NCBI GenBank assembly: GCA_002633005.1
Contig: NMRA01000322.1
Span: forward strand, 445,150 to 509,149
DNA length: 64,000 nucleotides
Reading direction: 5' to 3'
Origin: Phoronis australis
Lineage: Eukaryota > Animalia > Phoronida
Shown: positions 29,992 to 63,042 of the stretch, in pieces
Layout of the letters: the number at the start of each line of letters is the position of its first letter
Numbering within the stretch: the stretch's first letter is position 1
Made by a program: the position numbers and the translations under genes
The notes under the pieces: generated by a model
Seen by the model: only the letters and a program-made list of their open reading frames with translations
What the model was told of the DNA's origin: nothing
The model's database searches: none

Positions 29992-30015
29992 GTAGGTGAT
30001 GAGGTTGTTGGCTAA

Positions 30016-39358: not shown

Positions 39359-40008
39359 TCATTTTCTTGATCTGGTCCCTGGTTCACCTCTACACTGAGT
39401 AGAATTACTGTCGTTACTGCCTTCTTCCTGGCACACCACTCTTCCCCCATCGGACAGATGACCCCGTCCTCTGTGCACTTGTTGATCTGCTTGCAAGACC
39501 TCCTCCTGCATCGATCTCCCAGTCAAGCTCGACCGGGGACTTGATGACCCTTCAGACTGATAACATGGTTGTCCGTACACCTGCTTCTCCTCAGTGTCTT
39601 CCATTTCATCAGTCTGCGGAGGATTTACCTCCTGTTGACCAGGTGAAATGACCCCCACCTCTTGCACCTGTCCCCCAGCTAAACTCGATGAGGAACTTGG
39701 CAGCTCTTCATAAGACTCTATTTGCGGGTCCATCATCAGTCTACGATCTTCATCATTTTGTGGGTCATTTGGTTCTGGTGGTAGTGGTTCTCTGATGGTA
39801 CCAGGATCGTGTTTGACAACTCCTACACATATATTGTTTATGGTTGGTATATTTTCGATCTTGCAACGTAGAATTTCTTCATTGTTTATCTTGTTCAATT
39901 CCATGAAGTTCTTTAAAGTCTTATCATCATAACTGTGTTCCATATCACTTTTCTCTTTACTTTGAGTGTGTCCGTTTATGATAAGCTGTGTTTTTCTATT
40001 ATGACCAT
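39359..40008 (-). CDS. Terminal exon of an unidentified antisense gene nested in DNMT1 intron 7
   Basis: ttattttccag acceptor, phase 1. Longest gap-free ORF in the supplied track (194 aa), extending to 215 codons from the acceptor and ending in TGA. Acidic, S/Q/P-rich. Confidence 0.75.
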
Positions 40009-42215
40009 CTGGAAAATAAAATTTTGAATATATTTATGTATAAATACCATTCATGCAATTTTCTTTTTTCATGTATTACAAAATGCACATTGATTGTTAC
40101 AGTAATTATCACAAAATTATCATTTTTCAAAGGCTGATTAATTTATTACCAGTAAAGGAAAATTTACCAGAAGTTAATTTATGACTCCTACACAGTGCAA
40201 ACCATGGTAGCAATGGACTAAAATTTTCATAATCTTTGTTTCTTTGAGAAATTGACAGAATGAAGGTTGGTCATAAGTGAAAAATTATTGTAAGTACTGT
40301 GCAGTAAGATGCTGCTAGGTTGCTATTGTACTTGTAGCTTCTTTTGTTTTTGATTTTTGTATACCTACTTCTGTTGAGAACTTTCTCACTTATTATACCA
40401 TATGCGAAATGGGCAAAGGTTCATCATAGCGCTCTCACCTAATCAATCAGTTTTATTAAGCACTACATAGATTTTCCTCTACACTTTCTTTGAAATAGCA
40501 AAGTTCAAATAGGTAGCTGTTTATTTTTGCAATCTAATGATACTTGGTACACAAAAAATAGCAAAACTGTCTTTGATTCAGGTAATCCTGTACCAGCTGT
40601 TGGGTTTAGAGGAATTCTCAGCCTGCCTTCTATCACAAAAATAAAGTTTGACTTGGATAATTTGCCATTATGAAATTTGCCTGAAAATTTTTCTCATTCA
40701 GGTGAGGTGATTTCAGGGCTTTGAAAAAACTGACAGGTCATTATTACTAGGCTAGCGTGTCGCGTGTAATTTTATCCGCTAAGCATAGTCTTTGCAAACC
40801 CTAAAACATTTCCTTTCTAAATAAAGAACAGATTGAGACCAACGTTATGGTGGTTTGAATCTAATTGGACTTAATATAGGTCTGAAGTGACTTTAACACA
40901 ATTTTGTCCCTATTATCTGAATAGTAAGCATTCCAAGCTTGTGCTGTATTATAGTGTACAATCCCCCACCTTATTTATTGGCCTCTATTTTAACTCGTAT
41001 ATCAAAAAACTAAGAATATATATTTTCTGAAAGAAAAACGATTAGGGAACATGAAAATACTTGTATTAATATACCATTATTGTTTTTACGTAAAAACCTT
41101 TTTTAAGTCAAAATTCTATTTTTTAGAAAGGTACATTCATAGCAAAATAACCTCGGTCGGTTTTAATGAAACTTTTTTAAATGAAAATGTAATCACTAAT
41201 TACCTCAAAAAACGCTGCTAGGAATTTTCAATTAGTCTTTTCGTTTGGTTTCTATGACAAATCAACTCGCAAATCAACTCGCAAAACATAAGGTATCTCT
41301 GTGAAACGGAAATCGTATTCGTCTTTGTTACATTACGCAAAAAATAGGCCTTTATATCGAAAATCCTAAGAGTGTTTTTGAGACTGATGACTAAATATCA
41401 AATTTGGAAAGTTTCAGCGAAATCCATCAAGCCGTTTTTTTGATCTCGTGTTCCTAAGTTCAAATAAAGTCGATTTGCCGAAGCCGAGAAAAAGACGATT
41501 AAACGTTCCAACAAGTGAATATCTCAAAGTTTTCAGTTAATTGTTCAGTGAAACCTTGTTTTTGGTACACATAACCTATACAAGCCTTAACTATGTTCGC
41601 TATTTCAACATTCACTCGCAATGTCAACTGATTTTGTAGTGCTTAATTGTCATTAAAACGTACCATTCCAAGCTAACTACTGATGTTTGCGACCATTTGA
41701 TCTACTTTTATATGTAAATAGGTCACAATCCATTGTTATATAAATAGCCTGTACACGTCAGGTGCTGGGTGACTGATACAAAACCACGTAAGAAATGGAT
41801 AACAAAAATCGAATCGGTGGTTAAAGCGTTTCGTTAGCATGAGACCAAAACATTGAAATGTTAATTAATTAATTGAATGAAGGAATTAGGGTGAGGATTT
41901 ATCTTTTTCCACAATTTACTGTGTTCATGACCACAGAGGCCTGAGGCAACAGTAGCATGCATTCTCAATGCCAACGGTCGTATGCATTGTGGACACACAA
42001 CTCCCTTAGCATCAAAACTATGTTTTTTCTTTGTTTTCCAAGGCACCATTCTACCATAAGTACTCCTCGTTTACTCAATGTTGTGGCGATTTTGTGAATG
42101 AAAGGACTGAGGGTATACGAAGCTGTTCTGCACCTGGCGGGAGATTCGATTTGATTGAAAGCCCTTTGACCTTTGACCTCGGATAAGTAGAAAACAAGTT
42201 TTCTTCGGGCATTAT

Positions 42216-42664
42216 CAAGGTACCTAAACTACACGGTCAACGGACTCGTAAACACGGGCAGACACATGAACACGAATCACGGACCTGCAAACACCGTCCA
42301 CTGACTCACAAATACGGGAACGGACTCGCAAAACATGATCCACGCACCCAAATACATGGGACACGGACTCATATTCACGAGGAAACACGGTTAACAGACC
42401 GCCAAACACGGGTCACGGACTCATCGGCTTCCTGGGTCAGCTGACATCTCCATTTTGTCCGTAAACCGTGTTTTGCAGTCCGTTAACTGTGTTTCCTCGT
42501 GAATATGAGTCCGTGTCCCAAGTATTTAGGTGCGTGGATCGTGTTTTGTGAGTCCGTTCCCGTGTTTGTGAGTCAGTGGACGATGTTTGCAGGTCCGTGA
42601 GTCGTGTTCATGCGTCCGTAGGCCGTGTTTATGAGTCCGTTAACCGTGTAGTTTAGGTACCTTG
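42216..42664. mobile_element. Palindromic MITE with 5-bp TSD, copy 1
   Basis: CAAGGTACCTAAACTACACGG...CCGTGTAGTTTAGGTACCTTG with arms of about 190 bp rich in CACGGA. TSD ATTAT at 42211-42215 and 42665-42669. Confidence 0.85.
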
Positions 42665-42710
42665 ATTATGTACTATCTGTTCTTAAATTCCCTTACAAAA
42701 TAATACCTAC

Positions 42711-42842
42711 CCTCATATGATTGAAGCCTTGTATTTTGTATGCTGTCATACTGATAATTTTTGTTGCCGCCATGAGCATAGTTTCTGTTTTTTCTCTGTT
42801 TAGATTGAGTGCAGCTGGTTAAGTTGATACTGGTGTAAAGAC
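42711..42842 (-). CDS. Nested antisense gene, phase-1 exon (LYTSINLTSCTQSKQRKNRNYAHGGNKNYQYDSIQNTRLQSYE)
   Basis: tttttgcag acceptor and AGG|gtaggt donor; 132 nt, open. Confidence 0.6.
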
Positions 42843-43237
42843 CTGCAAAAAGAGACCAAAACAAAATGTATGATCTTTCAATTAGCTGTGACAGGACAGC
42901 TCATAAAATCCAACAATGATAAAATTCTTCCCTGCCATTTCACTTACTGTAATTTTGGTGTTAAGATCCTCATCTTTGCCAATTTTTTTCTGCTTACAAA
43001 TACAAAATGGATTTTATGAGTGAAACCCAAAGGAAGAAAGTTGAAGTATTATGCATATAAAAACAAAGATTGTTGTTTGTCGTGTCAATTGCTCGCATTT
43101 TGAATTGTCAATGAATTGGTACAGCTTTTCGTGGTGTTTATTGCATTGGCGATGTTTATGACTTAGGCTGTTGCCAAGTCTACGCGGATCAGAAAAGGCA
43201 ATTAGTAATTCGCAACTCTTATGAACAGATTTTGTAC

Positions 43238-43354
43238 CTGGTTTCTGATACCCATCTTGTTTCTGTTCTATGGTGAGGCTATCGTTAGCAGAGCTTGTGT
43301 CTGATGGTGGAGTCACTTTGTCTCTTGTCTTTGATTTAGAAGGTGTTCTTTTGG
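43238..43354 (-). CDS. Nested antisense gene, phase-1 exon (KRTPSKSKTRDKVTPPSDTSSANDSLTIEQKQDGYQKP)
   Basis: ttttgcag acceptor and CAG|gtacaa donor; 117 nt, open. Paralogous to 44205-44303. Confidence 0.65.
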
Positions 43355-44204
43355 CTGCAAAATGGAAGTGTAGCAACTACATTAAGATGGTGACCTGCTG
43401 AGCTTGTTTACCAAAGCTTCACTGTAATATATGCCTCCTTATTTTGCCACCTTATTTCCAGGTTACAAGTACAGGGGACTCTATGAATAAAGTTTAATGA
43501 CTTGATGCTACATCCAAGAAGAAGGTCGAAATATTTTGTGCCTGGAAACAAAAAATGTTGTTTCACAGAGACTTGATAACTCTTCATTGTTTGTAATATC
43601 ATTAATGGTGCTCATGGTATACAGTGTTCTTCACCACATATTTTGCGCATTGATTTGTTTGGCAGCACTTGCGACATGTTTGAATGGCCAGAGCTTCGTT
43701 TGAAAAAAATAGTGACCTGTTTGGAAAAAGGCATCACTGCCATTCAATGCTCTCCACGACTGATTTGGAAAAATTATGCACTCACTAATTGATTTGAAAA
43801 AGAATTCCTTTACTCATTTTAGACTTAAACATTCAAATTAACCCACTGGGCGCTTAACCCAGTGATGGCCGCTTAAATTGGAAATTTCAAGAAATTGTGG
43901 TGGACAATTACTCATACATGGGTGCTTAACTGGCCACTCAGTGCATTTGAAACTAAAGTCCGAAGACTCAAAGTTCAAAAGATTTGGTGGAAGTTGCTGC
44001 TGGGAAGTTAAACCTACATCTGTGTTTGAGTAGCAAAATATGCAACTTAAAATAGAAGGAAATACATGCAAAATTAGATATGTGCAAACTGCCTGATTTG
44101 TTCACCCTGCTCAAATTTTGCAACGCAAAACTTCCTCAAAGCATTGTATGCCCTTGCTAAATTATGTATTGATGTGCAGGAATGATGCAGTGCAAATTTC
44201 ATAC

Positions 44205-44303
44205 GTTGTTTTTGATGCCCATCTTTTTTCTGTTCTTTGATGAGTTTGCTGTCTGATGGTGGAGCCACCTTGTCTCTTGACTGTGATCTTGGTGTTGTAT
44301 TGC
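44205..44303 (-). CDS. Nested antisense gene, phase-1 exon (NTTPRSQSRDKVAPPSDSKLIKEQKKDGHQKQ)
   Basis: ttctgcag acceptor and AAC|gtatga donor; 99 nt, open. Differs from its paralogue by an in-frame 18-nt indel. Confidence 0.65.
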
Positions 44304-44489
44304 CTGCAGAAATGGAACTATTTTAAACAGCAATTTTAAGACATTGAAAATATTAATTTATTCACAGAGGCTTCTGATGTGTTGTTTCCGCAACACTTCT
44401 CTCCCTGTATGCTAACTTTCGTATGCAATTTTCGTCACTTCATGTGTCAGGAATATATGTAGCCTGTGCCCTAGGTGCGAAAACCAAGT

Positions 44490-45067
44490 AACTAAACTAC
44501 TACAGATATCAGTAATTACAAAAGTTATATAACGTGTTGAACTGTAAAGGTGGGTGACAATCTGCCTCCAATGAAGGTATACACAAGTGGTGAATAGTAA
44601 GTTAAGAAACAACATGCGGAAAATAACAGCAACACCGGGACAGCGACATGTGAAATTTGAGTATAAAGAGAAAGAATGAAAATTGGTTTGAGGGAGGGAG
44701 GGAAAGAGAAATTGAGTGAAAAATGAAAGTTGGAGAGAATTGTGGACGATGGCCCAGTGTTGCAACAAGACAAAGAGATCACGTGGTACAATTGAACCAA
44801 TAATCGTAAAACAAAGAGGGTCACTGACCTGAGAATCCAAACCATATGATAATGAGGACGAGGCAGTATAGCTTACATAGAATAATTTAATACTTAAATA
44901 GTTTTTATATGCGCTAACTGCGAAGCGATACCGAAGCTAGTTTACAGTGAAACAACATGTGTAGTTGAGATAAAAGGTCATATATATTATGACAAACTAA
45001 ACTACTACAGATATCAGTAATTACAAAAGTTATATAACATGTTGAACTGTAAAGGTGGGTGACAATC
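44490..45067 (+). repeat. 516-bp repeat family, partial tandem
   Basis: Aligns with 36560-37150; unit junction at 44904. Confidence 0.8.
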
Positions 45068-46148
45068 AATTCAAGGGCAACTGCACATACCCTATTGAAT
45101 GGATTTACCATAGGATCGCGTGCAGCTCTGTGAATCTGAGATTACCTACAATGGAGCTTTGCAAAGGAGTGCAAAAAGTTGGTCTATCATGGTTTCATGT
45201 ATCAGACTAATGGGTGTCACCTTACGTAAGTAACAAATGTATGAATGGGTGTTTTGTAGAGACTTTTCTTTACCACATTTGCAATACTTTTTTGTACATT
45301 TCAAATTACCATTTTAACTACGGTCATTGATAAATGACATTTATTTTTGTCATTTGTATTGAACATTGACGGTGCGTAAGCAAAGCTCCATTGGCATGGA
45401 GAGTTTGGTTTGCGAGAACGGTCATTAATTAGGACTCAACTATGGAAATATTAGAAAATTGCAAGTCTCTGGTAAGGTGGGCATAAAAACACCAAATTAG
45501 TAACACATCACAAACACAAAGCGAACGGAACATAAAACGTAATTTAGTGGAAACAATTGACATATGGTAAAAACTAAGTTACCCACTAGTTGAGCATTAC
45601 ATTTCAAGCCTGCATATCAGGCCCTTGATCCCATGACTGATCTTAAACTATAGCAGTGGGTGACCACTTATTTTCATCTGGCCACACCATCAATATGAGC
45701 AATACTCGAATTTTATCCAGAGAGGAACATTGGCACTTCCGTAAAATCAAAGAGGCCATTTACCCGAAAAGGTGCTACCCCCGCACTTAACCGGAACCAG
45801 GGACTGCAACTTCCATTTATGGCAAGGTGTTACTTCCAGTTCCACAACACAAGGGTTGGGAGATAATCATGTGATCAAGAGCCAGAGCTGTAGGCTTGAA
45901 ACGTTATGCTTAAAGCCAAACTTCAACAGAATTTTGTTTTTTAGATGTATTGGGCAACCAGATAATCCTAGCAAAGCCTTAGTAAAATAAGAAAACGTGA
46001 TTCAATCATGCAAATGTAAGCCTGTCAAATGATAGTTGAAGCTGCCTTTTCGTGCCTTGTTGCACCACTGCACTGGCAGATCCCAGCACAAACAACAAAA
46101 GGCCAATAACAATTGTATTGAATAAGGGTCTGAATAGAACAATATTAT

Positions 46149-46579
46149 CAAGGTACCTAAACTACACGGTCACGGACCCATGAATACGACTCACGGACCT
46201 GCAAACACCGTCCACTGACTCACAAACACGGGAACGGACTCACAAAACACGATCTATTAACCCAAATACACGGGACACAGACTCAAATTCACGAAGAAAC
46301 ACGGTTAACGGACCACCAAACACGGTTTACAGACAAAATATAGATGTCAGCTGACCCAGGAAGCCGATGAGTCTGCGACCCGTGTTTGGCAGTCCGTTAA
46401 CCATGTTTCCTCGTGAATATGAGTCCGTGTCCCGTGTATTTGGGTGAATGGATCATGTTTTGTGAGTCCGTTCCCGTGTTTGTGAGTCAGTGGACGGTGT
46501 TTGCAGGTCCGTGAGTCGTGTTCATGCGACCGTGATCGTGTTTATGAGTCCGTTAACCATGTAGTTTAAAGGTACCTTG
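46149..46579. mobile_element. Palindromic MITE with 5-bp TSD, copy 2 (opposite orientation)
   Basis: Same CAAGGTACC termini as 42216-42664, with the spacer reversed. Flanks are ATTAT and AATAT. Confidence 0.85.
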
Positions 46580-47538
46580 AATATGTGCTGTGGTGTTATT
46601 CACAGCTGTTTAACTTAAAAGGTGATTCTGGCTGTGATGTAGACAAAAGCAAGCCAATACACCTAACGGTTCCTTACATTTGGCAATTGATGGCATTAGT
46701 TGAGTCCGAGTGTCATTGCTCTTAACATGCTGTAGGAACCAAATTTACATGTGTTATCGTTAAAGCTGGGCTCTGACTAAATGTCTCGTAGTAAGTAACT
46801 TCTCTCATTTTTACCGTCATCATAGGAGTCAGCAATGAATGATGAATGCTTTTAACTTGAAATAAGGATGGTTGAGATTGGTCTAATATACAAAAAAGCA
46901 TCTACATGGTATTAACAAAGAGTGAGACAGATATAAAACGACACTACAAACATAGTCAATTGAAATATCGACAGTACCATCCAAGACAAAGAATATACCT
47001 TTTCCTCATCTTCTTGCTCTTAAAAGTAGCTTGTGATCACGTAATATACAAAAATATGAGCAACATGAAATCTTTTCTTAGCAAATTAATGTGCAATTTC
47101 TTATTTGTCATGTGGAATAAAATTGGGTACCCATGATGAGTGCAAAAAAATTATATAAGACAGGGTTATTGTGTAGTTGTCTCAGAGCCAGATTTTTGTA
47201 TTCACGTAAACACTGTAACCCTTACAAAATAAGAACATTTCATTATTAAAAAGTTTGTCAGTCACCTTTGTTGTATCCACTCATTGATGAAGAGATTTTG
47301 CACATAACTGGCTTCATGTCGTTGAATGTATACAAACTGATTCAAGTTTGTCATAATTTTGTCTGTATTACTTTTAGCTACCTCAATTTTATTTCATAAA
47401 ACAGTAAAGTATAGTCTGGAAAGCTTGCGTTTTAATCATTTCTGTGAATAGATTCCATACTATATCGTTTTATAGTGAAAAATGATGTGTGCGTGTGTGT
47501 GTGCGTGTGTGTGTGTATGGTATATTAAAATGCATTAC

Positions 47539-47643
47539 CTGATTTTTGCCCATTGTCTTTTTCCGTTGTTACTAAGCTGGAGTTTCCCAATCTTTCATTG
47601 GTTGGTTGGCCTTGCCCATTGCCTTTATCTTTGCTCTTTAAAC
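47539..47643 (-). CDS. Nested antisense gene, phase-1 exon (LKSKDKGNGQGQPTNERLGNSSLVTTEKDNGQKS)
   Basis: taagcag acceptor and CAG|gtaatg donor; 105 nt, open. Confidence 0.6.
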
Positions 47644-47922
47644 CTGCTTAAATAAATATTCTCGACTAAGAACGAAACTTAGGTCTCGGAAAACTATGAA
47701 AAGACTATACTCCCTCTTTGTTTAAATATGAAAGTGAGCTATCTGCTAATTTAGCCATTTGTTTGTTGTTTTTGATAGACTATTAAAGTTCCATTTCAAT
47801 CTAGAAAAAAAGTCAATTGTGGGAATAGCTTTTGATAAGTTACATTTGTTATGGTACTTAAATTTTATGTGTTGACAATATTTTTGAAGTCGCACGGTTT
47901 CTGTTCATTTGTTGACTGTTAC

Positions 47923-48627
47923 CTTTCCTTGCTACCTGATTATCTCAATAATACCTTGACGAATTTTGCTGAAACGGGTATGAGGAGGGAATGTGCTCGC
48001 ACCAATCCATTTCGTTCTGATTCATCTACTGTAATACACCCTGGTTGCTGTTTTAGTTTGCTACAAGAAATTCCTTATCTGTAAAGTAATTTTGCTAAAT
48101 ACTTGCTGCTGAAGTATGTGGGAGTGTGCTATTGTGATGGAGTCGTCATCCATTTGGTCCAAACCTATTGTATTCCTTGCTGTGACTTCCACTGTATCAC
48201 CTATCCAAAGTTGGACTTCCTCTGTAGAAGGTGGGTTTTGCCTAGTTATTTCTTGCAAGAATTGACCAGCAGCTGGGAGAATCGCGTTCCCCTCAATTCG
48301 ATGCAACAGCTGACCAGCAGCTGGGAGAGTGGCCTTCTCATAAATCCGGTGCAAAAGTTGATCAGCAGTAGTATCTCCTTCTTCTTAATCCAAGCTCCTT
48401 CGACATCTCTAGTGTTTTCATAATACTAATTCCAAATCTCCACACGTTTTTGGAGAGTTGCATATCAGCAGCCAACACTGTCTTTTCTCTAGTCGAACAT
48501 TTCAATTGGAGGTATTTAAAATGTACACTGAACTCGTGTGACCTCACTTTTTGACACTTCTTAGTGTGTCTTTCCTTCCAGTTTATCACCAAAGTCCTCC
48601 AAAGTATTCATAGTAATCTCAGAATAG
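47923..48627 (-). pseudogene. Decayed large exon of the nested gene, with 16-aa internal repeats
   Basis: ttttgttag acceptor and AAG|gtaaca donor are 705 nt apart. There are stops in every frame, but 48-nt repeats preserve QLLHRI through synonymous changes. Confidence 0.5.
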
Positions 48628-49555
48628 CTAACAAAAGGTTATAAGTTCATTTAATAATACCAATACCAATTCTAATATCAATTCTACATAGTTAAATACT
48701 GCTAACATGTGTTCTGGTGTGACCTAATTTTAGGTGACACCTGTTGTCCAGTTGAATAAGCTATTTTTTATTTGCCTCCAGATGTCAGTCAAAATCAAAA
48801 TTATCTTTATTAAGCATATCAAATTGCTCACTGGTTCCCTGTGTGTCGCTAGGTGGTAGAAAAAACGGTATAATTTAATTCTCCACCGGAAATTTTTTTA
48901 CACTGTCGTTTCTGATTGGCTGGTCGAATTCTTAACAGATTGCGCTTTACGCAAACTGGCATGACTGATAAAGGAGGAGTAAATGTGGTCTGTTATACAG
49001 ACAAATCGGTGCTTAATTTTTGTTCAAGAAATGTGAATCACAGAAATTGTGGTTGCTCCTTTTCAGAGTGCATCTTTCTACAGCTGTCACTTACTTTTGT
49101 TTATGTTGCTGTCCTGTATTCATAATATGAATGACAGGCAGTTTAAATAGGCCAGATATGTGTTTCTTGTACGTGTATGTCAGTGTGCTTCAAGTAAGCA
49201 GCTATTAAACATCACTGCAGAAACGAAATAGTTCATGCTGCTACGCCACTTGCATGACATGGTTAAGAATTGTTCATAAAAGTCCGCCATTTCCTCTCTG
49301 ATGCAAAGCTAAGCAATGACTGCTGAGGTTACCTACTGGATGATATACCTGCATCACCTGCATGTAATCTCTACATACAGGGAACCACAGAGATCGTATT
49401 GCTCCTTTGCAGATTTAAGTGCAAAATTTTAAGGTTAGAATGACAATGTAGATTAGTCATTCAGATTAGCAAGCTGGTTGACTCCATGAAATTTTGCTAT
49501 GAAAAGAATTAAGAAGTAATGGTTTACACTGTTCTTGCGCAAAAATGGTGTTTTG

Positions 49556-49559
49556 TATA

Positions 49560-49606
<47 letters not shown>

Positions 49607-49608
49607 AT
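49556..49608. repeat. (TATATG)n microsatellite
   Basis: About 8 hexamer units directly before the pogo-like element. Confidence 0.95.
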
Positions 49609-49613
49609 AGTTA

Positions 49614-52562: not shown

Positions 52563-52718
52563 CTGGCGTGCGTTCAGTAACGCTAGGACCAGCGCTAGGA
52601 CCTAACTAAAATCTAGCCAAAATCATGCGTTGTCATTTAAAATACACTGTAATATCTCATGTAATCTTGCGAAATCTTGCTTTATAGCGAGGTCCTAACG
52701 TCACTGAACAGGACGCTG
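52563..52718. mobile_element. Small MITE-like inverted repeat
   Basis: GTTCAGTAACGCTAGGACC (52572) versus GGTCCTAACGTCACTGAAC (52691). Confidence 0.45.
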
Positions 52719-53607
52719 GTTTGTTTCTGGGGCAGTGTGTGCAGCATACTTATGAGTAACTTGTCAATGAAAAACAAGCCATACATTGGTCACTTCGTGT
52801 GACTTGTTGTTAAGGCTGAAAAGTTCTCTGTCCTGACTTGTGCTTGAATCTGGGAATTGATTTTTTGCTATCCATTCAGGCGTCTAAAAATACAATAAGC
52901 TATTTGGGACCACCGATCGAATACTATAGGTCACGTGTTGTGAACATCATGTGGTACGTAAGAAGATCTAATGAATTCTTATTCATATTAGGACTCTACA
53001 TAAGTGGCAGGAGTAAATATGAGGAGAAAATTAATTTCAATTGTATCACTTATACAAGGTCCAGTCGGGCATTAAGCAGTAGTTGCTGGCAACTGCGTTC
53101 AGCTGTACACCCAGTGATTGCATCTAGCGTTTTCCACAAACTGTTTTACTGTTTTGAGATATTGCGCATCTTCTTGGTAACTGCCATTCGAAAATTTATA
53201 TTAACTATAATAAAGCCCTAGGGAGCCTGAAAATAGAAATGCTGGTGCTTAACTGCTGAGCCAGAGAGTTGCCCTAGTCACCCATGACCTTTGAAATTTA
53301 AGTTCAAAAGGATATAGAAAATTGTCTGTCACCCCGATGCCAAGGCTTTTTCTTTTTCTTTTGTCGCTAACATTTATTTGCCCAAATCAGGAATACGAGT
53401 GACAAATTGTGTCGCCACTGGGATTTTTGAATGAACTTTATATCAGCTATGTGGAGTGCTGCATATTGTATCATTGTGATGATTTTTAAGATTACATTCA
53501 TATATTTGGTCTGTATTGTCAGGTGGACTTTTAGTGCTGAAAAGTTTGTAATTTGTCTTATCGAATATTTGAGTAAGGTAGCAGTCAACAGAACAAGAAA
53601 ATCTCAC

Positions 53608-53664
53608 CCCCATCGCTGTTTGTAACCATAAGCCCAACCAGAGCAGTATGTGGGTATTCAGCAT
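53608..53664 (-). CDS. Nested antisense gene, 57-nt phase-1 exon (DAEYPHTALVGLMVTNSDG)
   Basis: taattgtag acceptor and GGG|gtgaga donor. Paralogue of 57762-57818. Confidence 0.6.
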
Positions 53665-53730
53665 CTACAATTAAAAAGACAATGTATTAAAAGTCACCTA
53701 TGAAGAATTTTGTGATTGGTTATCAATTTA

Positions 53731-54200
53731 CCGTATTCGCCGTAGTAACCGCCCATGCCCCTATAAGCGCCCCCCACGCATTTTCGGACTTTGCTAAAAT
53801 AAGCACCCAGTCCATGAACGTGTACGTGCGAAAAATCCTTACCTACAGTGTCCTAAAATTTTACAGTAACATCATCAATTTATCAGTAATATCCGACAGT
53901 CCTGAAAAAATCATTGTGAGCAGAATTTGTAGACCACGAGCCTCGCCGCTATGTCGGTATTTAGCCGTGACAATGTACTTCAAACTTCTGCCATGCCTCA
54001 AAATGAAAACACAAAAGTTTTGCTGATCTTGCGAGGACCAATGGTCTGGCTTTTCAGAACAGAAGTAGTGTACTTGTCTACGGGATTGCTTTGTAGATAT
54101 TTCCCAAATTTCTTTGTAGGTCTACAAGTGAAAATCGCGAATCGAAGACTAATAAAAAGCTTGGCCAGTGTTAAAAGCACGTGGCGAGGAAAAGCGCCTA
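53731..54200 (+). mobile_element. Pogo-like element copy 2, left third only
   Basis: TA|CCGTATTCGCCGTAGTAACCGCCCA start. Collinear with copies 1 and 3 until about 54200. Confidence 0.85.
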
Positions 54201-54546
54201 GTTCTTACCGTATAAAAACGTGTTGTTTTATTTCGCTGTTACGGATTTACTTGTATTTGGACACACCGTAGCCTACAAAGTTCGGCAGGCCAATAAGGTC
54301 CGTAGCAGGAGTTGGGGGTCTGTTCGGAGATAAATTCGATGTATTCTTCCGTGAAATACAGACAGGAGAACCTAGATCTGTGTTGTTTATACTGTGCTAA
54401 ACATACAAAACGCGTGTTATCCTGGCCAGTGGCGCGGAACCCGATCACAGGCCCGTCACGGCCGGACTGACTCGTTATCCCGGCCAGTGGCTCGGAACCC
54501 GATCAGGCCCGCCCGGCACGAACATAACCAGCTTGAATTGGAAACT

Positions 54547-55039
54547 CAGGGCTTGGAATTTTCCGCGGAAACACAGATTTCCGCTTTTTTCAAATGTTCT
54601 GTCGGCGTATTTTATTATATTTCTGCGTAAAAAATCAGATTTGATATAAAATTTCTGCGGCAAATTTCTTTCTTACTGCGGCGTTGCCAGTGACTTTCAC
54701 CTCGAAAAGCGGAAGTTGCTCTTTATGTTTTGGAGGAACGTAAATTGTCAACATTCCTGGGGCACCTGGGAAAGCGTGGTGGATTTCTTCAGTGGCGTCT
54801 CATGAGATTGTAAATCGCGGTGACAAATACTGCGACTCTGCAGCCAAAAATGTGTGGAGGTGGGAGTGGACAGACGAGCTAAAAAGACGCAGACGCATGC
54901 TTCTGGAGGTGGTACCTTTTTTAGTCCTCCCGATTTTTGTCGGCAGAAGGTCCACATCGCCATTTTCAAGGCTGGGTTCGCGCATGTTTGGGGCCGTAAA
55001 AAATTCTGCTTTCTTTGTCATGGGTCATTCCAAGCCCTG
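54547..55039 (+). mobile_element. Non-autonomous hAT-like element with 6-bp TSD (hAT6-like)
   Basis: 13-bp TIR CAGGGCTTGGAAT / ATTCCAAGCCCTG; TSD GAAACT at 54541-54546 and 55040-55045. Internal frameshifted remnant KNVWRWEW...DFCR.KV. Confidence 0.8.
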
Positions 55040-56283
55040 GAAACTAAACCTCCAATCACGAAAAGACTAATAATGAGACAAAGAAATAATGTGCACGTAA
55101 TTATTGATGTGAATTAGCCACGAAACTGAAAATCTACTTACTTGTGGGGGACCGCGAAGTCGGGTTCCCCTTCCACAGACCGTCGGGGCAAAGGTTGTAC
55201 AGTAACAATGATTTGAATAATGTATTTGTATTTTTGTATTTTTAAATAAAGATTCCCCTAACATTTGACAATAGCGTATGAAGTCGAGTAATTGTTTCAC
55301 AACAGCTTTCTGTCAGCAAACACTGAATTAGCATGCGCTCACACGGCCTCGGTGCCTGGTCAATTACCTTTGTTACAGGCATCAAAAGCTGGTAATGGTT
55401 TATTCATCGCTGGCTTCTCAAAACATTTGCACTCACGAGCACTCCAAGGCATTACAAATTGTATCTAATGAGACAGACTTTGTTTCAGTTTCATATAAGC
55501 ATTGGTTAGCCAGATCATTTTAGGATGAGAATAATTCATTTTGAAACAAAATGCAGAATAATAAACGTCTACATGGCAACTCGCCCGGCGCCAATCCCGA
55601 CTTAGTCAAGAGCTCATCCGACGAAGACTTCACGGGTCGGATCGTTAGGTTTCACAGGCTATCAGTTCGAACCGGAATACACTGATCAAGAAATACTAGA
55701 GAGGCGCCGTGAACATGCATAGGCAACGGAACGTATGGATAGTTCTTTGGTAAGCCGGAATTCGTCAGAGAAATCGCTGTCGACGAAATGCCGGCCACAG
55801 ACACGGAGATGTTTCACGGCCTCCTACTTGCTATTAACAGCATACCTTTCATTCTTCACTACCGCGAGCCACTTCCTAAGCATTTCGGGCTCTTGAGGAA
55901 GTCGATAGAACGATATAGCCGCTTTCTTCGCACCTTCATAGTTTGGACAAGCGGGAACCAATGCACCGTAATATAGCGGCATTCACTCTGCAGACGAACC
56001 ACTGACGTCGCTGCGTCGCTTCTCACCTTCCTCCCAGGTTAACGCGACACCTTTCTGCAAGGTGAGGCCGACCATGTAAGAGGCGATATGGATATAGACC
56101 GATTAAGACGGTAAAAAAGACTAATTAAATTGGGTGGCATTCTACTTCATGTAACATTTTCTTTAAAATCCATGATGATCACCTAATGTTTGCACAAAAG
56201 CAGTATCCAAGTGTGTATTGTGGAGGGCTTGGAATTTTCCTGTTTTAAGAGGATTTGTCTTTTTTGGTTTTGATTTCTTTTTG

Positions 56284-57709
56284 CCGTATTCGCCCTAATA
56301 AGCGCCCAGGACGCTTGGAAAAATTTGTTTCTAAGGCTATTGAAACCTGATCTCGGAAACGGGTCAAATCGGAAGTTAGGATTCATCAAATTTAGACTGT
56401 GTGACGTCTCTGTAACCCATGACAGACTTTCTACAAAAATGTGTATTGCTATCAAACTTCGTTGTTAACTATCATTTTTCAGAAAATTGTTGAAATGCCA
56501 GGGCGAAAACTGGCCGACTGATGTGCCGCTGCCTGGCGATCATCAATAGGGCAACTTGAATTCTTGAATAAAAATACAGTTTCGACTCAAAAAATACCTG
56601 AAATTGTCCTTAAGTTTTCAGTATAGTGTCCCTAAATTTTTTAAAGATTCCTGTGAAGTGGAGATTAACTGCAGATTAAGTCCAAATCTGTGCTAGATCT
56701 TACCACGCAACATGAAAAAAATCTGTGGACGAAGAAACATGTTGTCACGTGATGTTCGTTTTAACGTTCCTCTGCATATGTATTAATTAGCGAGCTTGTG
56801 CGCGTCATCAGAGTTCATTTGCCAGAGTTAACGCAATGTACCGATCTAGGTGTGCATTGTTACTAAAGAAATTAAGTTGAGCAATAAAGTAGAACGTGTT
56901 TTACCTTTAGCACTTGCTGGTCTCATCTACTAGAAAACGTTCGAGAATTGTCTCGTTAAGGCCGATATTAAAAGTCATTGAGTGGCCGGTTGACTGGATG
57001 TGCGACAGTCTAACAGTTGTTTTCTTAGAGATTCAGGGTGCAAGGGTGTTGAAGTGTTCACTATCAGCAGGTCATTTTGACTTTAAAAACATCAATTAGG
57101 ATTAAATAAATAATTCCTCTTTAAAAGAACGCAGTTTTTTTACAGTATAAGAAACTTCCGGAAATTAGTGCCAATATTTATTTCTTGCCGAAGCTATGCT
57201 ATCCGTTTCATGAATAGATAGTTCCTTAAAACTAATGTCATTGCTAATTAGGTATGTAGCGCGAGTTTCCTGGCCACGTGCTTTTACACTGGTCAAGTTT
57301 TTTATTACCGGTAGTCTTCGGTTTGCGGTTTTCAAGTGTACAAAGAAATTTGGATTCCTGTTGAGTGAGGAGATATGTATGGGAATGTTGCGCCTGTTCT
57401 GAAAAGCAAGACCGTAGTGAGACACGTTCGTTGCAAGATAGCAAAACTTCTGCGAAAGATTGAAGACCATAGTTGCGGCTAAGTACCGACAGCAGTGAGG
57501 CTCGTGGTCTACAAATTCCATGCACATTGATATTTTCGAGACTGTCCGATCTTATTGATAAATTAAAGACGTAACTGTAAAATTTTAGAACTGTAGGTAA
57601 GGCATTTTTCGCATGTACAAGTTTTTGAGCTGGACGCTTATTTTAACGAAATCTGAAAACGCATGGGTGGCGCTTATAAGGGCATGGGCCCTTATTAGGG
57701 CAAATATGG
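56284..57709 (-). mobile_element. Pogo-like element copy 3, full length, inverted
   Basis: Ends CCGTATTCGCCCTAATAAGCGCCCAGG and ...CTTATTAGGGCAAATATGG|TA. Reverse-complement similarity to 49614-51028 throughout. Confidence 0.85.
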
Positions 57710-57761
57710 TACCCCACTCAGCAAGTATGGTAGCAGTGAACAGAACCACAATGTCACTCAC

Positions 57762-57818
57762 CCCCATCTCTGTTTGTAACCATATGCCCAGCCAGAGCAG
57801 TCTGTGGGTATTCAGCAT
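57762..57818 (-). CDS. Nested antisense gene, 57-nt phase-1 exon (DAEYPQTALAGHMVTNRDG)
   Basis: taattgtag acceptor and GGG|gtgagt donor; open. Confidence 0.6.
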
Positions 57819-59223
57819 CTACAATTAAAAAGTCAAAATTTAAAGTCACCTTTGAGGAATTTTGTGATTGGTTATCAGTGTGTCTGAAATGTCTACCGTG
57901 AATGCTGAACAGATGTCCTTTCTGGTTTACTCTAATAGTACTGAGCTCGATTTTATGCAAGGACAGAGTAGGTTGACACATGCTCTTCAGGTAATAACTA
58001 GGTTACCAAGGATCGGATTTCTTAAGTAAGTTGATGATCACCTAACGTGCACAAAAGCAATGTCCATGTGAGTATTCTGCAGGGCTTGGAATTTTCCTCT
58101 TTTAAGATGATTTCCTCTTTTTGGTTTTGATTTCCTCCCCAGGGCAATTAGAAAATTTTTTATTTGATCTCCAGCTTCCTCTTCTTAGTCTCTTTTTATC
58201 ATTATTTTGACTTTATTCATGCAAAAACGTTGATTTCAACGCAAAAATGTCTATCACACAGGCCTATACTTTGCCTGGAAAAATTTTCTTCTTTTTTACC
58301 ATGATGATATTGCATGTCATCTACTCGCTGCAAACCATGCCGTCCTTTGTCCATGTCTTTAAATAGTCATGCTTGGACTTTGTGTTCAGTTCAGGACGAG
58401 TGCCTCAGCTCATCATTAATTTACTCTATTTTATCTTATTAGTTCATCTGATTATACATATTAACTAATTTTTATATAACTAATTAATTTTATTTGTTTA
58501 TTTATCTTTTAAGTCTAATTGCACATAGCTATCTGTATTTCACTTCCTGTAACTTTTCGACTGAGCCCACTTGAAAGTCTGTGTATTGACTAAAGTGGCC
58601 GATTTTTTTGGGCACATGGCGACCTGTGCCCCTAAGTTATGCCCTGCATAATATTCCATTCCATGGTAGGACTTGATTTTAGTATATTCTTGAACAACAA
58701 AACTAGCTGTTTAAGAAAATGCTCCAATTTTGGAGTTTAGCCAATCGTAAAATTTCTTATTCAAAAACACTACATGAGCATTATGCCTGTGACTACAGTT
58801 GCTGCTCATTGGGCAACAATTCATGATTGGATTAGTGTGGTAATGTAACTGTATACCACTGTGGTTTAGAATTCAACATCCACAACTCAGAAGAGAAGCA
58901 GTATGTGAGTTTGTGAAAATGCTCATAGCATAAAATGACATGTTGTGAAAAGTCAACTTGTAGAATGTTAATAGAACTTTTCATAGTATTCACTGAGGTG
59001 GTCACCCAGTATTTAAATGAAGTTCATATAAATAAATAGATAAAATGTCCTTAGTCTTTACTTTTGTAGAGAAATTTAACAAAATAAAATTTTAACTTGT
59101 TGGCCATATTATGTTCTAAATACGTGGAATAACGATATTACCATTTCTCATTTAACAGATTTATCTTTAATTCAAGTGTGCTTTTTTGAGAAGTTTCATT
59201 GATAAAATGAACTCCTGTGGCCG

Positions 59224-59520
59224 GTTGCATGAAACAGTCCTAAATAGGGACTCAACTAAGGTCCCTAAGTCTTTTTGCGTATTTGTGTTTTTATGGACTC
59301 ACAGATGCAATAATTTTCTATCATTTCATCTTTATTATGAGCTCCTCTTTGCTTAATGACATTTCCTAAATAAGTAATATAACTAAAAACTTTGAAAATA
59401 AATAGGGACTCAGTCCTTAAATTGGGGGTGTTGCATGAAAAGATCCTTAATTATTTTCGAAAATACATAGTAGATTTAGGGAACTTGGTTGAGTCCCTAT
59501 TTGGGACTGTTTCATGGAAC
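59224..59520. mobile_element. MITE with about 45-bp inverted arms
   Basis: GTTGCATGAAACAGTCC.AAATAGGGACTCAAC and its reverse complement at 59476-59520. No TSD confirmed. Confidence 0.6.
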
Positions 59521-59991
59521 TATGCTCTGTTGTTCCCCTCGTAGTTTCATTGCGCTCTTCACTTGTGAACAAAAGTCTCGTTTAGACATCAACTTTTGGC
59601 CCGGCGCAACTGACACGGAGCAAACTGACCGGTGTCAAGCGGCCGTTTACACACACAACTCTTTAACCGAGGCAAGACGGAAATTAAAGGCTGGAGCGAC
59701 TGGATCGCACATGCGCAGGTTTACAAATGGCAAGAGTTGCAGAGACAAAGAACTCGTACGTAGGTCATTGCACAAGCGCAGTAGAGAGGATCCTTTTTGC
59801 CTTGCTCCAGTTTCGCGCCTAGACTTATAATTGACACAGCACAAGATGTTCGGACGGAAATTGCTCTACCTCACAAACGGGTGGCGAAAATTTGTCACCG
59901 CGGTGTCAATTTTCTCCGTGTCAACTTGTTCCGTGTCAGCTATCCGTGTCAACTTTGTAAGTGTAAACAGCACTAAAGTTCCACACTGTAC

Positions 59992-60141
59992 CTTGTTCTG
60001 CAAAGATCCCAGTAATGGAGTTGACCTTGGTTTGTCCTTGGGAGTCGTTTTTCTCCTCTGGGGCAAAACCTGTTGTGTCTTGTGGAGACTTCTGGTAGAC
60101 ATTTGCTGTAGCCTCAGGGCGTTCAACAGTTGGTGTTTGTG
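59992..60141 (-). CDS. Nested antisense gene, phase-1 exon (QTPTVERPEATANVYQKSPQDTTGFAPEEKNDSQGQTKVNSITGIFAEQ)
   Basis: attacag acceptor and AAG|gtacag donor; 150 nt, open in phase 1. Confidence 0.6.
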
Positions 60142-60664
60142 CTGTAATTGAACAGTTGTATGTTATTGGATGTTATTGTCTTTTAATCCAAGAAACAATT
60201 GGCAATTAGCTAAAACCCTCAATTAAAGCGTTGTCCGAACAGGCCTAGAACATAAGTTACTCATGGAATGAGTTGTTGCTAGGTTGGAGGGTGCCCGGAC
60301 GCTATGTAAACTTTAGGTGTCCCACTTGTGCCAACTTACTCCACCTTATCGAGCAAAGTTAACTTGTTCTAGGGTAACTTGTGTCACCTGTAATCTCTGT
60401 GTCGCCGCAATTAATCCTGATGCGAGGCGGAAGTAATTATTACCTGCGGGCTTGAGGAGTTTATAATACATTAATATAGATCTCAGTTTCTTTTCACTCT
60501 GTATTCTGTACATTTTATTTGCTGAGCAACAACTTCTGCCTTGCGCTAGTTATCGGATGTGTGTGCGTGCAGTTATGTGTATTCGAGTGTCTTCTTTCTC
60601 ACATCATGACAAGTATTTGTGTCATGTCACATTGTTGGATGTGCTGTGTGGACAGTTCTGCTGA

Positions 60665-61837
60665 TAGCTCACTTGCGAGTTTCTCGCTAGTCACTGTGAC
60701 GTCACCGGAAAGGGGGCAAAACCCGCCATATTGCTCTTGTTTTGCCCCGAGTCTTTGCTACACACGCTAAAACTTACTGGAGTTCTTATGGTGAATTTTA
60801 CGCTTAAAACGTTAAAACAACTTAAGATATGGTAGATGGGTCGTGGAATAAATGTGAATAGACGAAGAAAATGTGACCTTGTTATGTTGTGCGAAGCTGT
60901 GAACGGACTGAAATTGGAACTTAACCCGCTCTAGGCATGAATGGCGCAGGCATACAGGGGCGATAGTGTATCCCCATAAAAAGATATTCACTTCAAAATA
61001 CAGCAAATAAAATCAAATGAAACATGCATATGTGCACATGAAGTTATAATTAACACATACCCTGACTCTGGACACAATTTAGTCTACAAATAACTTGAGC
61101 ATATTCAGAAAAACCTCGCGGTTGTCTCGAGTTTCTCTCACTAAAGAGCCGCCATTTTGAGGAAGTTGCGTGAAATCACGCCTGTTGACGAACAAAAAGT
61201 CCAAGGGACACAAATCTTGCAAATTTCACTTGATATTTCTCATGCTATTTGCAAGTGTCACGCGCCAGGTCACGCGCCAGATCTCGCGCTTCGCTCAGTC
61301 TCGCGCTAGCCTTTGCCTCATACTCACCTGACTCAGTTGAAATACTTGATTGTGGTAATCGCGCGCGCGGACAAAGTTAACAGTAACCACAAAGTGGAGT
61401 TGGAATTCTTCGCCTAAGTCACCTGAATTCCCGTATATATGCTTCATCGAAGATATGTATAGAAGCAGAAAGAGTCACTGAAGAAAGTAAGAGCCTTTTA
61501 GGTGCTAATTTTAGGTGTAGAATGTATTTTCGACGAGGTGAAAACTTTACCAGTGAGCGGATTTCGCCTTCCGCCCGTTTAAAATACACGGGACGAAATT
61601 AGTACAGAACGCGATAGAACGTATTGTAGTGCGAATCTGAAGTTCATTTGCCATAACAGCAATGCTTTTGGGCATTTTTCGAACTAAACGGCTAAAAACT
61701 CGAAGACAATGACAGAATACACTCTGCTACCGTACTGGGCAAATGACCAAACGACAAGCTTTTGCCCCACTTCCCGTGACGTCACAGTTAAGTCTCACAT
61801 AATCTCGCGTTATTGTTATAAACTCGCAAAAGGCCTA
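60665..61837. mobile_element. TAG..CTA inverted-repeat element with a CpG-rich promoter-like core
   Basis: Left end TAG.....TTGCGAGTTT...CTGTGACGTCAC.GGAA..GGGCAAAA is mirrored at 61760-61837. No TSD found. Confidence 0.55.
61061..61490. promoter_or_regulatory. Candidate bidirectional promoter with divergent non-coding first exons
   Basis: YY1-like AAAATGGCGGC (minus strand, about 61148-61158), TCTCGCG twice, GCGCGCGCGG. Minus-strand donor AGG|gtatgt at 61060 and plus-strand donor AAA|gtaaga at 61487. Confidence 0.45.
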
Positions 61838-62217
61838 TTGGATGCAAATGCCCTTGAGCAAGATGTACTAGGGTAACTCCTAGTATGGACTTTCTCAGTT
61901 ATTGTAGTAGGGTGTGGTCTGTCCGCTTGAGTTTATGGTTCAAATACAACAGGTTTTCAATGTAGAGATTTTGACTTTATGGTTCTGTACGTAATGACTT
62001 ACCTGCTGATCAACTGAATATTGCAGTAGTTTTTTTGTGTCACTACACTTGTTTAGAGTAAGGCCCTGTAGGATGTTCAAATCTTGAGTGCATAAAAACA
62101 TGGTCACATCAATACAAGTGAAACTCATTTAAACGTTTATCGTGGGCATTTAGGCAAATGTGGGCATAGACCTTAACGGATACATTAGTAATAAAATCAA
62201 TTAATAAATTAATCTAC

Positions 62218-62277
62218 CTTTGAGCTGTCCTTTGTCCATCTGACTTGTAGTCGTGCTTGACTTGTTGTTGCAATCTT
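62218..62277 (-). CDS. Nested antisense gene (or paralogue), phase-1 exon (DCNNKSSTTTSQMDKGQLK)
   Basis: ctctttag acceptor and AAG|gtagat donor; 60 nt, open. Confidence 0.45.
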
Positions 62278-62904
62278 CTAAAGAGGCCCAAAACTTGAAG
62301 AAGGTCCAAATCATGGCTGTAATTTATGAGGGCATGTTTTTATACAAGATTAAAACAAGTTTCATTATTCTAAAACTAGCAAATATTTGCTATTGTGTAG
62401 CGGGGTTTAATACAGACACCTGAGCTCTTTTCCGTAGACCTGGTACATGGAGTTTCAGCAAGAAATCTTTGCTAATAGAATGGAAAAAGTGAATCCTATC
62501 CCATATCTCAACATTCCATTCTCAACGACCAATCACTTCAGTCGCCATTTTCTTAGGTTACGCTATTCTCTAGTGTACTCATGAAATACTCGCCGTCGCG
62601 TGATTTTGCATTCTCGCTTTTCTCTCAAAGAACTTGGCCAATGGAACACTGCCCTGAATTCTTTGGACAATTAGTGCTTGTGAAAGCTCAGGTTATCCAT
62701 CTCTTTTTCTAGTTATTAGAAACTTGTCATTGATGCATGAGTTTGACTGGCCTACATAGAACTTGTAATTGGCGCGTTCTTATTCCCAGGGACCTTCCTA
62801 TAGTCTTTTTGCAATGTCAGTGTTCACAGGTATGCTTATATTACTGAACATGCAACAAATTGCTATAGGCACTGCAAACCAGCTACTTAGTTTCAAAAAC
62901 TCAC

Positions 62905-63042
62905 AAAACAGGTGAAAGATGCGCTGGTTGACCCTGCTATCAGAGGCCCCAGTTGTTTCAGTATCAATATCTGTTTGTTTAGCAGCATCTTTTCTGCGGT
63001 CTTCTCTGTTGTTTTCCTCTTTTCTATCCATCAGAGCTAAAT
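62905..63042 (-). CDS. Nested antisense gene (or paralogue), phase-1 exon (LALMDRKEENNREDRRKDAAKQTDIDTETTGASDSRVNQRIFHLF)
   Basis: ttttttttcag acceptor and TTT|gtgagt donor; 138 nt, open. Confidence 0.55.

What the first reader, a model, noticed from the sequence alone, without database searches (positions are those of the whole stretch)
39359..63042. Unrecognised antisense gene inside DNMT1 intron 7, built from an array of symmetric phase-1 exons
Seen: ten minus-strand segments with AG/GT boundaries have lengths of 138, 60, 150, 57, 57, 141, 105, 99, 117 and 132 nt. All are multiples of 3 and open in phase 1, and they lead into a 650-nt phase-1 terminal exon. Joining the exons from 60141 downward gives about 500 uninterrupted codons of hydrophilic S/T/Q/K/D/E-rich sequence with no domain I recognise. 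Inference: the exons can be skipped, duplicated or lost without frameshift, so this could be a fast-evolving, combinatorially spliced, largely disordered protein transcribed against DNMT1. Caveats: I picked the exons by eye, which favours in-frame candidates. Direct splicing of 62905 to 62277 creates TAA, and no start exon is established.
Basis: partly seen in the sequence, partly recalled or inferred. Interest (0 to 1): 0.85.

Follow-up and report, generated by a model that had tools for sequence, protein, structure and literature searches.

The report
Orphan cassette-exon gene inside DNMT1 intron
The 28-kb seventh intron of this invertebrate's likely DNMT1 gene holds, on the opposite strand, ten short frame-preserving exon candidates and a last exon covered by RNA-type reads, which likely form the 3' part of an unrelated gene for a predicted floppy protein with tyrosine docking motifs; the design is known from other animals, and no spliced junction has yet been seen.

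Summary
In detail: all ten AG..GT segments and the 650-nt last exon are at the stated places, and the join from 60141 is open for 501 codons. Two exon pairs are local duplicates. The last exon is covered by RNA-type data, mostly in the minus-strand sense, with the adjoining intron near empty. Against: no spliced junction was listed, the upstream exons are almost uncovered, dN/dS between duplicates is about 1, two exons and one acceptor are weak, and combinatorial splicing is untested. The TAA problem vanishes with a tandem acceptor 3 nt downstream. No homologue was found. The 5' end probably lies beyond DNMT1 exon 8. Best guess: a disordered intracellular tail or adaptor with phosphotyrosine docking sites. 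Nested genes and disordered proteins built from 1,1 exons are known kinds; the scan noted similar cassette tails in other genomes. Interest 0.3.

The parts
62905..63042 (-). first visible exon candidate (138 nt, 1-1); holds an in-frame ATG at codon 4; ends in T
   Evidence: acceptor in top 0.3%; periodicity p=0.013; no X1 depth in its bin beyond one other contig
62218..62277 (-). weak exon candidate (60 nt, or 57 nt from the tandem AG, start 62274); the longer form makes TAA after the 138-nt exon, the shorter does not
   Evidence: periodicity p=0.62
59992..60141 (-). exon candidate (150 nt, 1-1)
   Evidence: periodicity p=0.002; weak splice scores 3.0 and -1.0
57762..57818 (-). exon candidate (57 nt, 1-1), copy A of a young duplicate
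   Evidence: best splice pair in the intron; 53 of 57 nt identical to copy B, flanks also alike
53608..53664 (-). exon candidate (57 nt, 1-1), copy B of the young duplicate
   Evidence: third-best splice pair; 4 differences, all non-synonymous
51601..51741 (-). exon candidate (141 nt, 1-1); acceptor uncertain, a stronger AG at 51734 would shift the frame
   Evidence: periodicity p=0.028
47539..47643 (-). weak exon candidate (105 nt, 1-1)
   Evidence: T-poor trough; periodicity p=0.26; bin depth 0-0.19
44205..44303 (-). exon candidate (99 nt, 1-1), copy A of an older duplicate
   Evidence: 82 of 99 aligned bases identical to 43354-43238, likeness confined to exon plus about 15 nt each side, indels of 3 and 15 nt
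43238..43354 (-). exon candidate (117 nt, 1-1), copy B of the older duplicate
   Evidence: periodicity p=0.043
42711..42842 (-). exon candidate (132 nt, 1-1), tyrosine-rich
   Evidence: second-best splice pair; about 52 letters of X2 read depth in its bin
39359..40008 (-). coding part of the last exon (215 codons and TGA)
   Evidence: frame longer than 300 of 300 shuffles; covered by X1 contigs and X2/X3 reads
38835..39358 (-). likely 3' UTR; ATTAAA at 38857, lower end inferred
   Evidence: X1 contigs reach 38959; signal scan
35059..63418 (+). host intron 7 of the plus-strand gene taken as DNMT1 (28.4 kb)
   Evidence: 8-exon model open for 278 codons, phase 2 on both sides
58613..58943 (-). 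copy of the flanks of the 141-nt exon that lacks the 307 nt holding that exon
   Evidence: 51469-51551 matches 58810-58886 and 51859-51917 matches 58885-58943

Best explanation
The minus strand of the 28-kb intron carries ten frame-preserving exon candidates and a long open last exon that RNA-type data cover, and these are likely the 3' part of a lineage-restricted protein-coding gene whose start probably lies beyond DNMT1 exon 8, predicted to encode a disordered intracellular region of about 550 residues that would act as a phosphotyrosine docking tail of a membrane receptor or adaptor. Shown by the sequence: the exons' places, phases, open join, two local exon duplications and the absence of any membrane or signal segment in the modelled part. 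Inferred: that the exons are spliced together; that all-phase-1 borders let exons be gained, lost or skipped (512 of 512 skip combinations stay open with the distal acceptor at 62274); that selection keeps frame and hydrophilicity rather than residues; that tyrosines in Y-[D/E/Q] and Y-[D/E]-x-[L/I] settings, spread over six internal exons and the last one, are kinase sites bound by SH2-type proteins. The overlap with DNMT1 is likely positional, not regulatory.
For: Coding signal. Exon-limited likeness of the 44303/43354 pair with in-frame indels. Last exon covered by X1 contigs (depth 12-36) and about 870 letters of X2 reads all with first mate on +, the tool's usual sign of minus-strand RNA; X1 and X2 have zero depth over 40037-40991. 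Hydropathy -1.23, highest 19-residue window 0.77. Of 15 tyrosines, 9 are followed by D/E/Q (null 3.4, p=0.002) and 3 fit Y[ED]x[LIV] (null 0.3, p=0.002). No good donor between 63043 and DNMT1 exon 8. Precedents: optional tail exons with SH2 motifs in shrimp Dscam (PMC6851185, passages), tyrosine core motifs in Botryllus FcoR tails (PMC12582321, passages and section 13).
Against: No joint at any proposed junction was listed: one search lists 2 joints, both in a repeat; one search shows 15 of 225, none at a proposed junction. X1 has zero depth in the bins of six upstream exons (63042 apart from one other contig, 62277, 47643, 44303, 43354, 42842) although it covers the last exon well (the tool warns that holes prove nothing, and X1 also has a 175-nt hole inside the last exon). 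X3 has about 130 letters on the other sense and X4 none on the last exon. dN/dS about 1 for both pairs (11 non-synonymous to 3 synonymous; 4 to 0). The tyrosine test was chosen after seeing the sequence, 10 patterns were tried, plain YxxL/I/V/M/F is not enriched (4 versus 2.5, p=0.23), and there is no ITAM, ITIM or YxN. No membrane segment or ectodomain is in the window. A crude gene score does not lift 62277, 60141, 51741, 47643 or 42842 above noise.
Confidence: 0.42

Rival explanations
1. Same real gene, but a free-standing soluble disordered protein that starts at the ATG in exon 63042-62905 (about 560 residues) after a non-coding first exon and works as a linker or scaffold, as calpastatin or MAP2 do; the tyrosine settings are incidental.
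For: In-frame ATG at codon 4 and an open model of 566 residues; no hydrophobic segment; described class of 1,1-exon disordered proteins (PMC3632108 section 19).
Against: The frame is open upstream of that ATG to the acceptor and the exon enters in phase 1 like the others; tyrosine settings exceed shuffles.
Confidence: 0.27
2. A decaying gene: the last exon is still transcribed (as a short-ORF or non-coding RNA from a nearby start) while most upstream exons are relics that are no longer spliced.
For: RNA-type coverage almost only on the last exon; dN/dS about 1; several weak splice sites; many repeat insertions in 49-59 kb; an X1 contig ends 28 nt upstream of an ATG at 39943 (sequence).
Against: No stop or frameshift in 10 of 10 internal candidates, nor in 215 last-exon codons; duplicates that differ at 17 of 99 aligned bases kept both splice sites and only in-frame indels; about 52 letters of X2 depth in the 42842 exon's bin.
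Confidence: 0.15
3. The 3' part of a secreted or extracellular low-complexity (mucin-, matrix- or adhesive-like) protein whose signal-peptide exon lies upstream.
For: Phase-1 introns are typical of extracellular modular proteins (recalled); S/T/Q/K/D/E make up 52% of the internal exons; 9 N-x-S/T sequons.
Against: Nine sequons are near what the N and S/T content gives (about 7, my estimate composition); S+T is only about 18%; no signal peptide seen; tyrosine settings look like kinase sites.
Confidence: 0.1
4. Mostly chance: eye-picked T-poor AG..GT segments and repeat fragments, with one fortuitous long frame.
For: Shuffled introns give about 7 loose hydrophilic 1-1 candidates; 62277 and 47643 lack support of their own.
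Against:: frame length, periodicity, blind splice ranking, exon-limited paralogy and exon-limited coverage all point the same way.
Confidence: 0.05

Closest known systems
Disordered proteins assembled from successive 1,1 symmetric exons: calpastatin and MAP2 (Schad et al. 2013, PMC3632108; passages and section 19 read)
   Same: Run of same-phase symmetric exons, predicted disorder, internal exon duplication; the paper reports 4405 successive (1,1) exons in human genes and names calpastatin and MAP2 as 1,1-built.
   Different: No sequence likeness found; no conserved repeated functional motif; here the gene overlaps another gene; splicing not shown.
Penaeus monodon Dscam cytoplasmic tail (PMC6851185; passages read)
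   Different: No Ig, FN3 or membrane exon in this window, no homology, no skipping shown; some Dscam-type skips shift the frame.
Botryllus FcoR and Hydractinia Alr receptor tails (PMC12582321 passages and section 13; bioRxiv 10.1101/2022.03.04.482883 passages)
   Same: Lineage-specific, highly divergent tails carrying YxxI/L/V core motifs (4 here); FcoR3/4 swap motifs by splicing.
   Different: No canonical ITAM or ITIM here; no ectodomain seen; tail far longer; single locus as far as the window shows.
Host/nested gene pairs (bioRxiv 10.1101/2023.05.02.539096; passages read)
   Same: A gene in the host's largest intron, on the opposite strand, with low expression; over a tenth of mammalian genes are hosts.
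   Different: The 5' end likely extends past the next host exon, so it may be interleaved rather than fully nested; I found no report of one in DNMT1 (searches returned 0 papers).

Membership tests
Nested antisense gene | Exons lie in a host intron on the opposite strand | tested here: met
   All 11 segments lie in 35059-63418 of the plus-strand model
Nested antisense gene | Transcribed from the opposite strand | tested here: inconclusive
   Last exon: X2 about 870 letters first-mate + and none on -, X3 about 250 versus 130, X1 contigs unstranded and RNA only by guess; library strandedness not on record
Nested antisense gene | Whole gene, start site included, inside the one intron | tested here: inconclusive
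   No donor above 2.4 in 63043-63418; window ends at 64000; no genome held
Disordered protein built from 1,1 symmetric exons (calpastatin/MAP2 type) | Three or more successive symmetric exons of one phase | tested here: met
   At DNA level: ten candidates, phase-1 periodicity; splicing itself not observed
Disordered protein built from 1,1 symmetric exons (calpastatin/MAP2 type) | Product mostly disordered | tested here: inconclusive
   Hydropathy -1.23; last exon mean pLDDT 51.5 without an alignment, two short helices; no disorder predictor or assay run
Disordered protein built from 1,1 symmetric exons (calpastatin/MAP2 type) | Growth by internal exon duplication | tested here: met
   57818/53664 and 44303/43354 pairs
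Disordered protein built from 1,1 symmetric exons (calpastatin/MAP2 type) | Alternative inclusion of the exons | tested here: inconclusive
   No junction listed; depth about 1
Tyrosine-motif receptor tail (Dscam, FcoR, Alr type) | Membrane segment and ectodomain upstream | not testable with these tools
   None in the 566 modelled residues; sequence beyond 64000 not available
Tyrosine-motif receptor tail (Dscam, FcoR, Alr type) | Canonical ITAM or ITIM | tested here: not met
   0 and 0 in the 547-residue model
Tyrosine-motif receptor tail (Dscam, FcoR, Alr type) | YxxI/L/V core or SH2-type tyrosine settings | tested here: inconclusive
   4 cores, not above shuffles (p=0.23); Y[ED]x[LIV] 3 and Y[DEQ] 9, each p=0.002, post hoc among 10 patterns
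Transposable-element fragments | Match to an element consensus or high-copy behaviour | tested here: inconclusive
   No element library on hand; no Pfam family at cut-off for 8 exons; bins of 47643, 44303, 43354, 42842 draw almost no reads while repeat bins draw tens to hundreds; 57818, 53664, 51741, 60141 share bins with repeats

The most novel reading that the evidence does not exclude
An orphan receptor or adaptor gene threads through DNMT1 and builds a 550-residue signalling tail from one-motif phase-1 cassettes, most carrying their own tyrosine docking site; exon skipping (up to 512 in-frame forms), exon gain and loss between haplotypes, and a 3-nt acceptor switch that makes or removes a stop would tune the set of docking sites while the residues around them drift neutrally.
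Probability: 0.13. Interest if true: 0.6.

Novelty: new member of a known kind. Interest (0 to 1): 0.3.

Why it matters
If real, it is an unannotated orphan gene that homology-based annotation would miss, and a compact case of a disordered protein growing and shrinking by frame-neutral exon duplication, with a young pair, an older pair and a possible lost copy side by side. It also matters practically: reads, knock-downs or methylation data assigned to this DNMT1 locus could belong to the antisense gene. It does not reveal a new kind of system, and nothing here ties it to DNMT1 regulation.

Tried and rejected
No whole genome is held, so paralogues and the 5' end could not be sought. Homologue searches with the last exon: none among longer proteins; 2 hits among 1.84 billion representatives, both judged chance sums over repeats (P0001, P0002); none in metagenome contigs, 0 of 229 candidates; Atlas hits all under 0.9. 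Exon 42842: no candidate. The host exon 8 also found nothing, so this species seems absent from the protein collection and these blanks say little. Pfam on 8 of the 11 exons: nothing at cut-off. Folds of the last exon and its first 78 residues are low-confidence; Foldseek and VIA-align gave no clear match. Rfam: 0 matches in 35059-64000. The run search listed no holder on record as RNA. The first read-laying (44001-64000, 90% likeness) was swamped by repeats and hid 210 joints. The metagenome scan with host exon 8 gave 2 of 584 stretches, both bacterial chance matches. A RHIM-like reading of one I-C-V-G stretch (motif recalled) was dropped: the flanking pattern does not fit. CpG depletion of the exons (0.29 versus 0.76 for the intron) was not used, as repeat-free intron is as low. 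My codon-based gene score was trained on E/D/K-rich sequence and is crude. Literature searches with no result: (0 papers each); searches gave nothing on point (listings only). Supplements of the papers were not opened; exon phases of the FcoR, Alr and Dscam tails may be given there.
Full report
Setting. The window is animal-type DNA of about 38% GC. A hexokinase gene lies on the minus strand at about 0.9-15 kb (Pfam Hexokinase_1, E=2.7e-8). A plus-strand gene starts at 20236; eight exons join into 278 open codons and leave a 28.4-kb intron at 35059-63418, in phase 2 on both sides. I take it as DNMT1 from recalled motifs (DMAP1-binding repeats, a PCNA-binding box, the start of the replication-foci domain); tools gave only a sub-threshold DMAP_binding hit (E=0.44) and nothing. 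Notes of other agents call the organism a marine invertebrate; I did not test that. No whole genome is held.

The observation. That stop disappears if the tandem AG three bases on (start 62274) is used: the model is then open for 566 residues, and 512 of 512 skip combinations of the nine middle exons stay open, against 256 of 512 with the first AG.

Is it more than chance? Yes for the set, not for every member. The last-exon frame (224 codons stop to stop, beginning 25 nt before a top-0.4% acceptor) is longer than the longest frame in 300 of 300 shuffled introns (maximum 220). The internal exons have the base pattern of coding DNA in the phase-1 frame (T 42/48/81, G 97/51/57; the host's low-complexity exons give T 11/10/24). 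With the young duplicate dropped and shuffles conditioned on an open frame, the G excess at position 1 was reached by 0 of 1500 shuffles and the T3-T2 excess had p=0.002. On the other side: shuffled introns give about 7 loose hydrophilic 1-1 candidates against 16 observed, three of which are pieces of the last exon; 6 of 10 internal exons pass p<0.05 singly, and 62277 and 47643 have little support of their own; the 51741 acceptor is much weaker than an AG at 51734 (2.2 versus 9.1), whose use would bring a stop in the next exon; and a crude gene score ranks only four of the ten at the top. The splice matrices rest on 16 donors and 16 acceptors.

History of the array. 57818 and 53664 are a young duplicate (53 of 57 bases, flanks alike too). 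44303 and 43354 are an older pair: 82 of 99 aligned bases, both splice regions kept, indels of 3 and 15 nt, and no likeness above shuffles beyond about 15 nt on either side. 58613-58943 repeats the flanks of the 141-nt exon without the 307 nt that hold it, which fits loss of a copy or insertion of the exon. Differences within pairs are neutral-looking: 11 non-synonymous to 3 synonymous (0.16 versus 0.15 per site) and 4 to 0. Because synonymous divergence is only about 15%, the loss of flank likeness is not saturation; it points to an exon-sized duplication or to flank replacement, and is weaker evidence of selection than it first looks.

RNA. Four runs were available: X1 (contigs, RNA by guess, 65% of the words of 38900-40008) and X2-X4 (raw RNA reads of one study, 18-19% of each read). 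On 38700-44420 at 96% likeness, X1 contigs cover 38959-39291, 39268-39478 and 39654-39971 at depth 12-36, and X1 has nothing over 40037-40991, as expected of a transcript rather than DNA. X2 has about 870 letters on the last exon, all with the first mate on +, which the tool says usually means minus-strand RNA; X3 has about 250 on + and 130 on -; X4 none (for the arithmetic). The upstream exons are nearly bare: X1 zero over 42711-44420; X2 about 52 letters in the bin of exon 42842, which could be part of a spliced read; X3 three short matches at the end of exon 44303 whose other parts do not lie here. No joint at a proposed junction is listed. The first laying was swamped by repeats, showing 15 of 225 joints, none at a proposed junction; X1 has zero depth in the bins of 47643 and 62277. 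The tool warns that filtered records leave holes, and X1 has a 175-nt hole within the last exon, so this does not refute splicing; but it does not show it, and combinatorial splicing is wholly untested.

The product. The modelled part is hydrophilic (mean hydropathy -1.23, no membrane or signal segment, net charge -12). The last exon folds with low confidence apart from two short helices and matches no structure. No homologue was found, but the host gene was not found either, so the species and its close kin appear unsampled. One feature stands out: tyrosine is the main aromatic residue (15 Y, 6 F, 0 W in 547), 9 of 15 are followed by D, E or Q (null 3.4) and 3 fit Y[ED]x[LIV] (null 0.3), each p=0.002. 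I noticed this by eye and tried ten patterns, so it is a lead: plain YxxL/I/V/M/F is not enriched and there is no ITAM, ITIM or YxN. That such settings suit tyrosine kinases and SH2 domains is recalled knowledge.

The 5' end. The first visible exon has a strong acceptor 376 nt from host exon 8, and no donor above 2.4 lies between them. The upstream exon therefore likely lies over or beyond host exon 8, outside the window's reach. The gene may be interleaved with DNMT1 rather than wholly inside intron 7, and any folded or membrane part would be there.

Reading. I put about 0.85 on a real minus-strand coding gene, about 0.7 on most of these exons being spliced to the last exon, and 0.42 on the full mechanism: a disordered intracellular tail or adaptor with tyrosine docking sites on frame-neutral cassettes. 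Rivals are a free-standing disordered scaffold (0.27), a decaying gene with only the last exon transcribed (0.15), a secreted low-complexity protein (0.10) and chance (0.05).

Comparison. Disordered proteins built of successive symmetric exons by tandem duplication are described, with calpastatin and MAP2 as 1,1 examples (PMC3632108, passages and section 19). Optional tail exons with SH2-type motifs are described for shrimp Dscam (PMC6851185, passages), and divergent tyrosine-motif tails for Botryllus FcoR (PMC12582321, passages and section 13) and Hydractinia Alr (bioRxiv 10.1101/2022.03.04.482883, passages). Nested genes in the largest intron are common in mammals (bioRxiv 10.1101/2023.05.02.539096, passages). 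Searches for a gene nested in DNMT1 returned 0 papers. The scan itself has noted cassette-exon tails in skate and octopus genes (unchecked AI notes, seen after I formed the tail idea). It works like these systems; it is not shown to be a member of any receptor family.

Verdict. Observation confirmed, interpretation partly supported, a likely new orphan member of a known kind. Interest 0.3; 0.6 if long reads show a combinatorially spliced docking tail.

Noticed in passing
window 860-15100 (-): Intron-containing hexokinase gene, head to head with the DNMT1-like gene; Pfam Hexokinase_1 E=2.7e-8 on one exon; an assembly gap at 4125-4596 cuts one exon.
   Followed up: partly
window 55760-55982 (-): THAP-domain remnant (Pfam THAP E=5e-6) with an in-frame stop, likely a dead DNA transposon inside the intron.
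   Followed up: partly
window 63337-63583: One X1 contig (314 nt, depth 19.5) covers host exon 8 plus 82 nt of intron 7: intron retention, another host start or acceptor, or an antisense exon overlapping exon 8.
   Followed up: no
window 30016-30628 and 30878-31504: 95% identical tandem copies on either side of a single N at 30877; may be two haplotypes assembled in tandem.
   Followed up: no
window 41026-40970 and 61477-61328 (-): Fourth- and fifth-best splice-site pairs on the minus strand, lengths multiples of 3 but with stops in all frames: poison or non-coding exons, or chance.
   Followed up: no
window 62082-62003, 52849-52794, 47018-46999 (-): Further open exon candidates that enter in phase 1 and leave in phase 0; if any is used the gene is not purely phase 1.
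   Followed up: partly
window 42210-42670, 46164-46589, 49609-51033, 56281-57711: Two copies of a palindromic MITE-like element and two inverted copies of a 1.4-kb element with terminal repeats; they draw most RNA reads in the intron.
   Followed up: partly
window 48064-48384 (-): 107-codon open frame with a 48-nt tandem repeat, no Pfam match, depth near zero.
   Followed up: partly
window 27027-32984 (+): Host exons 2-4 appear to encode two DMAP1-binding-like repeats in tandem (recalled motif; weak Pfam hit on exon 3 only).
   Followed up: no
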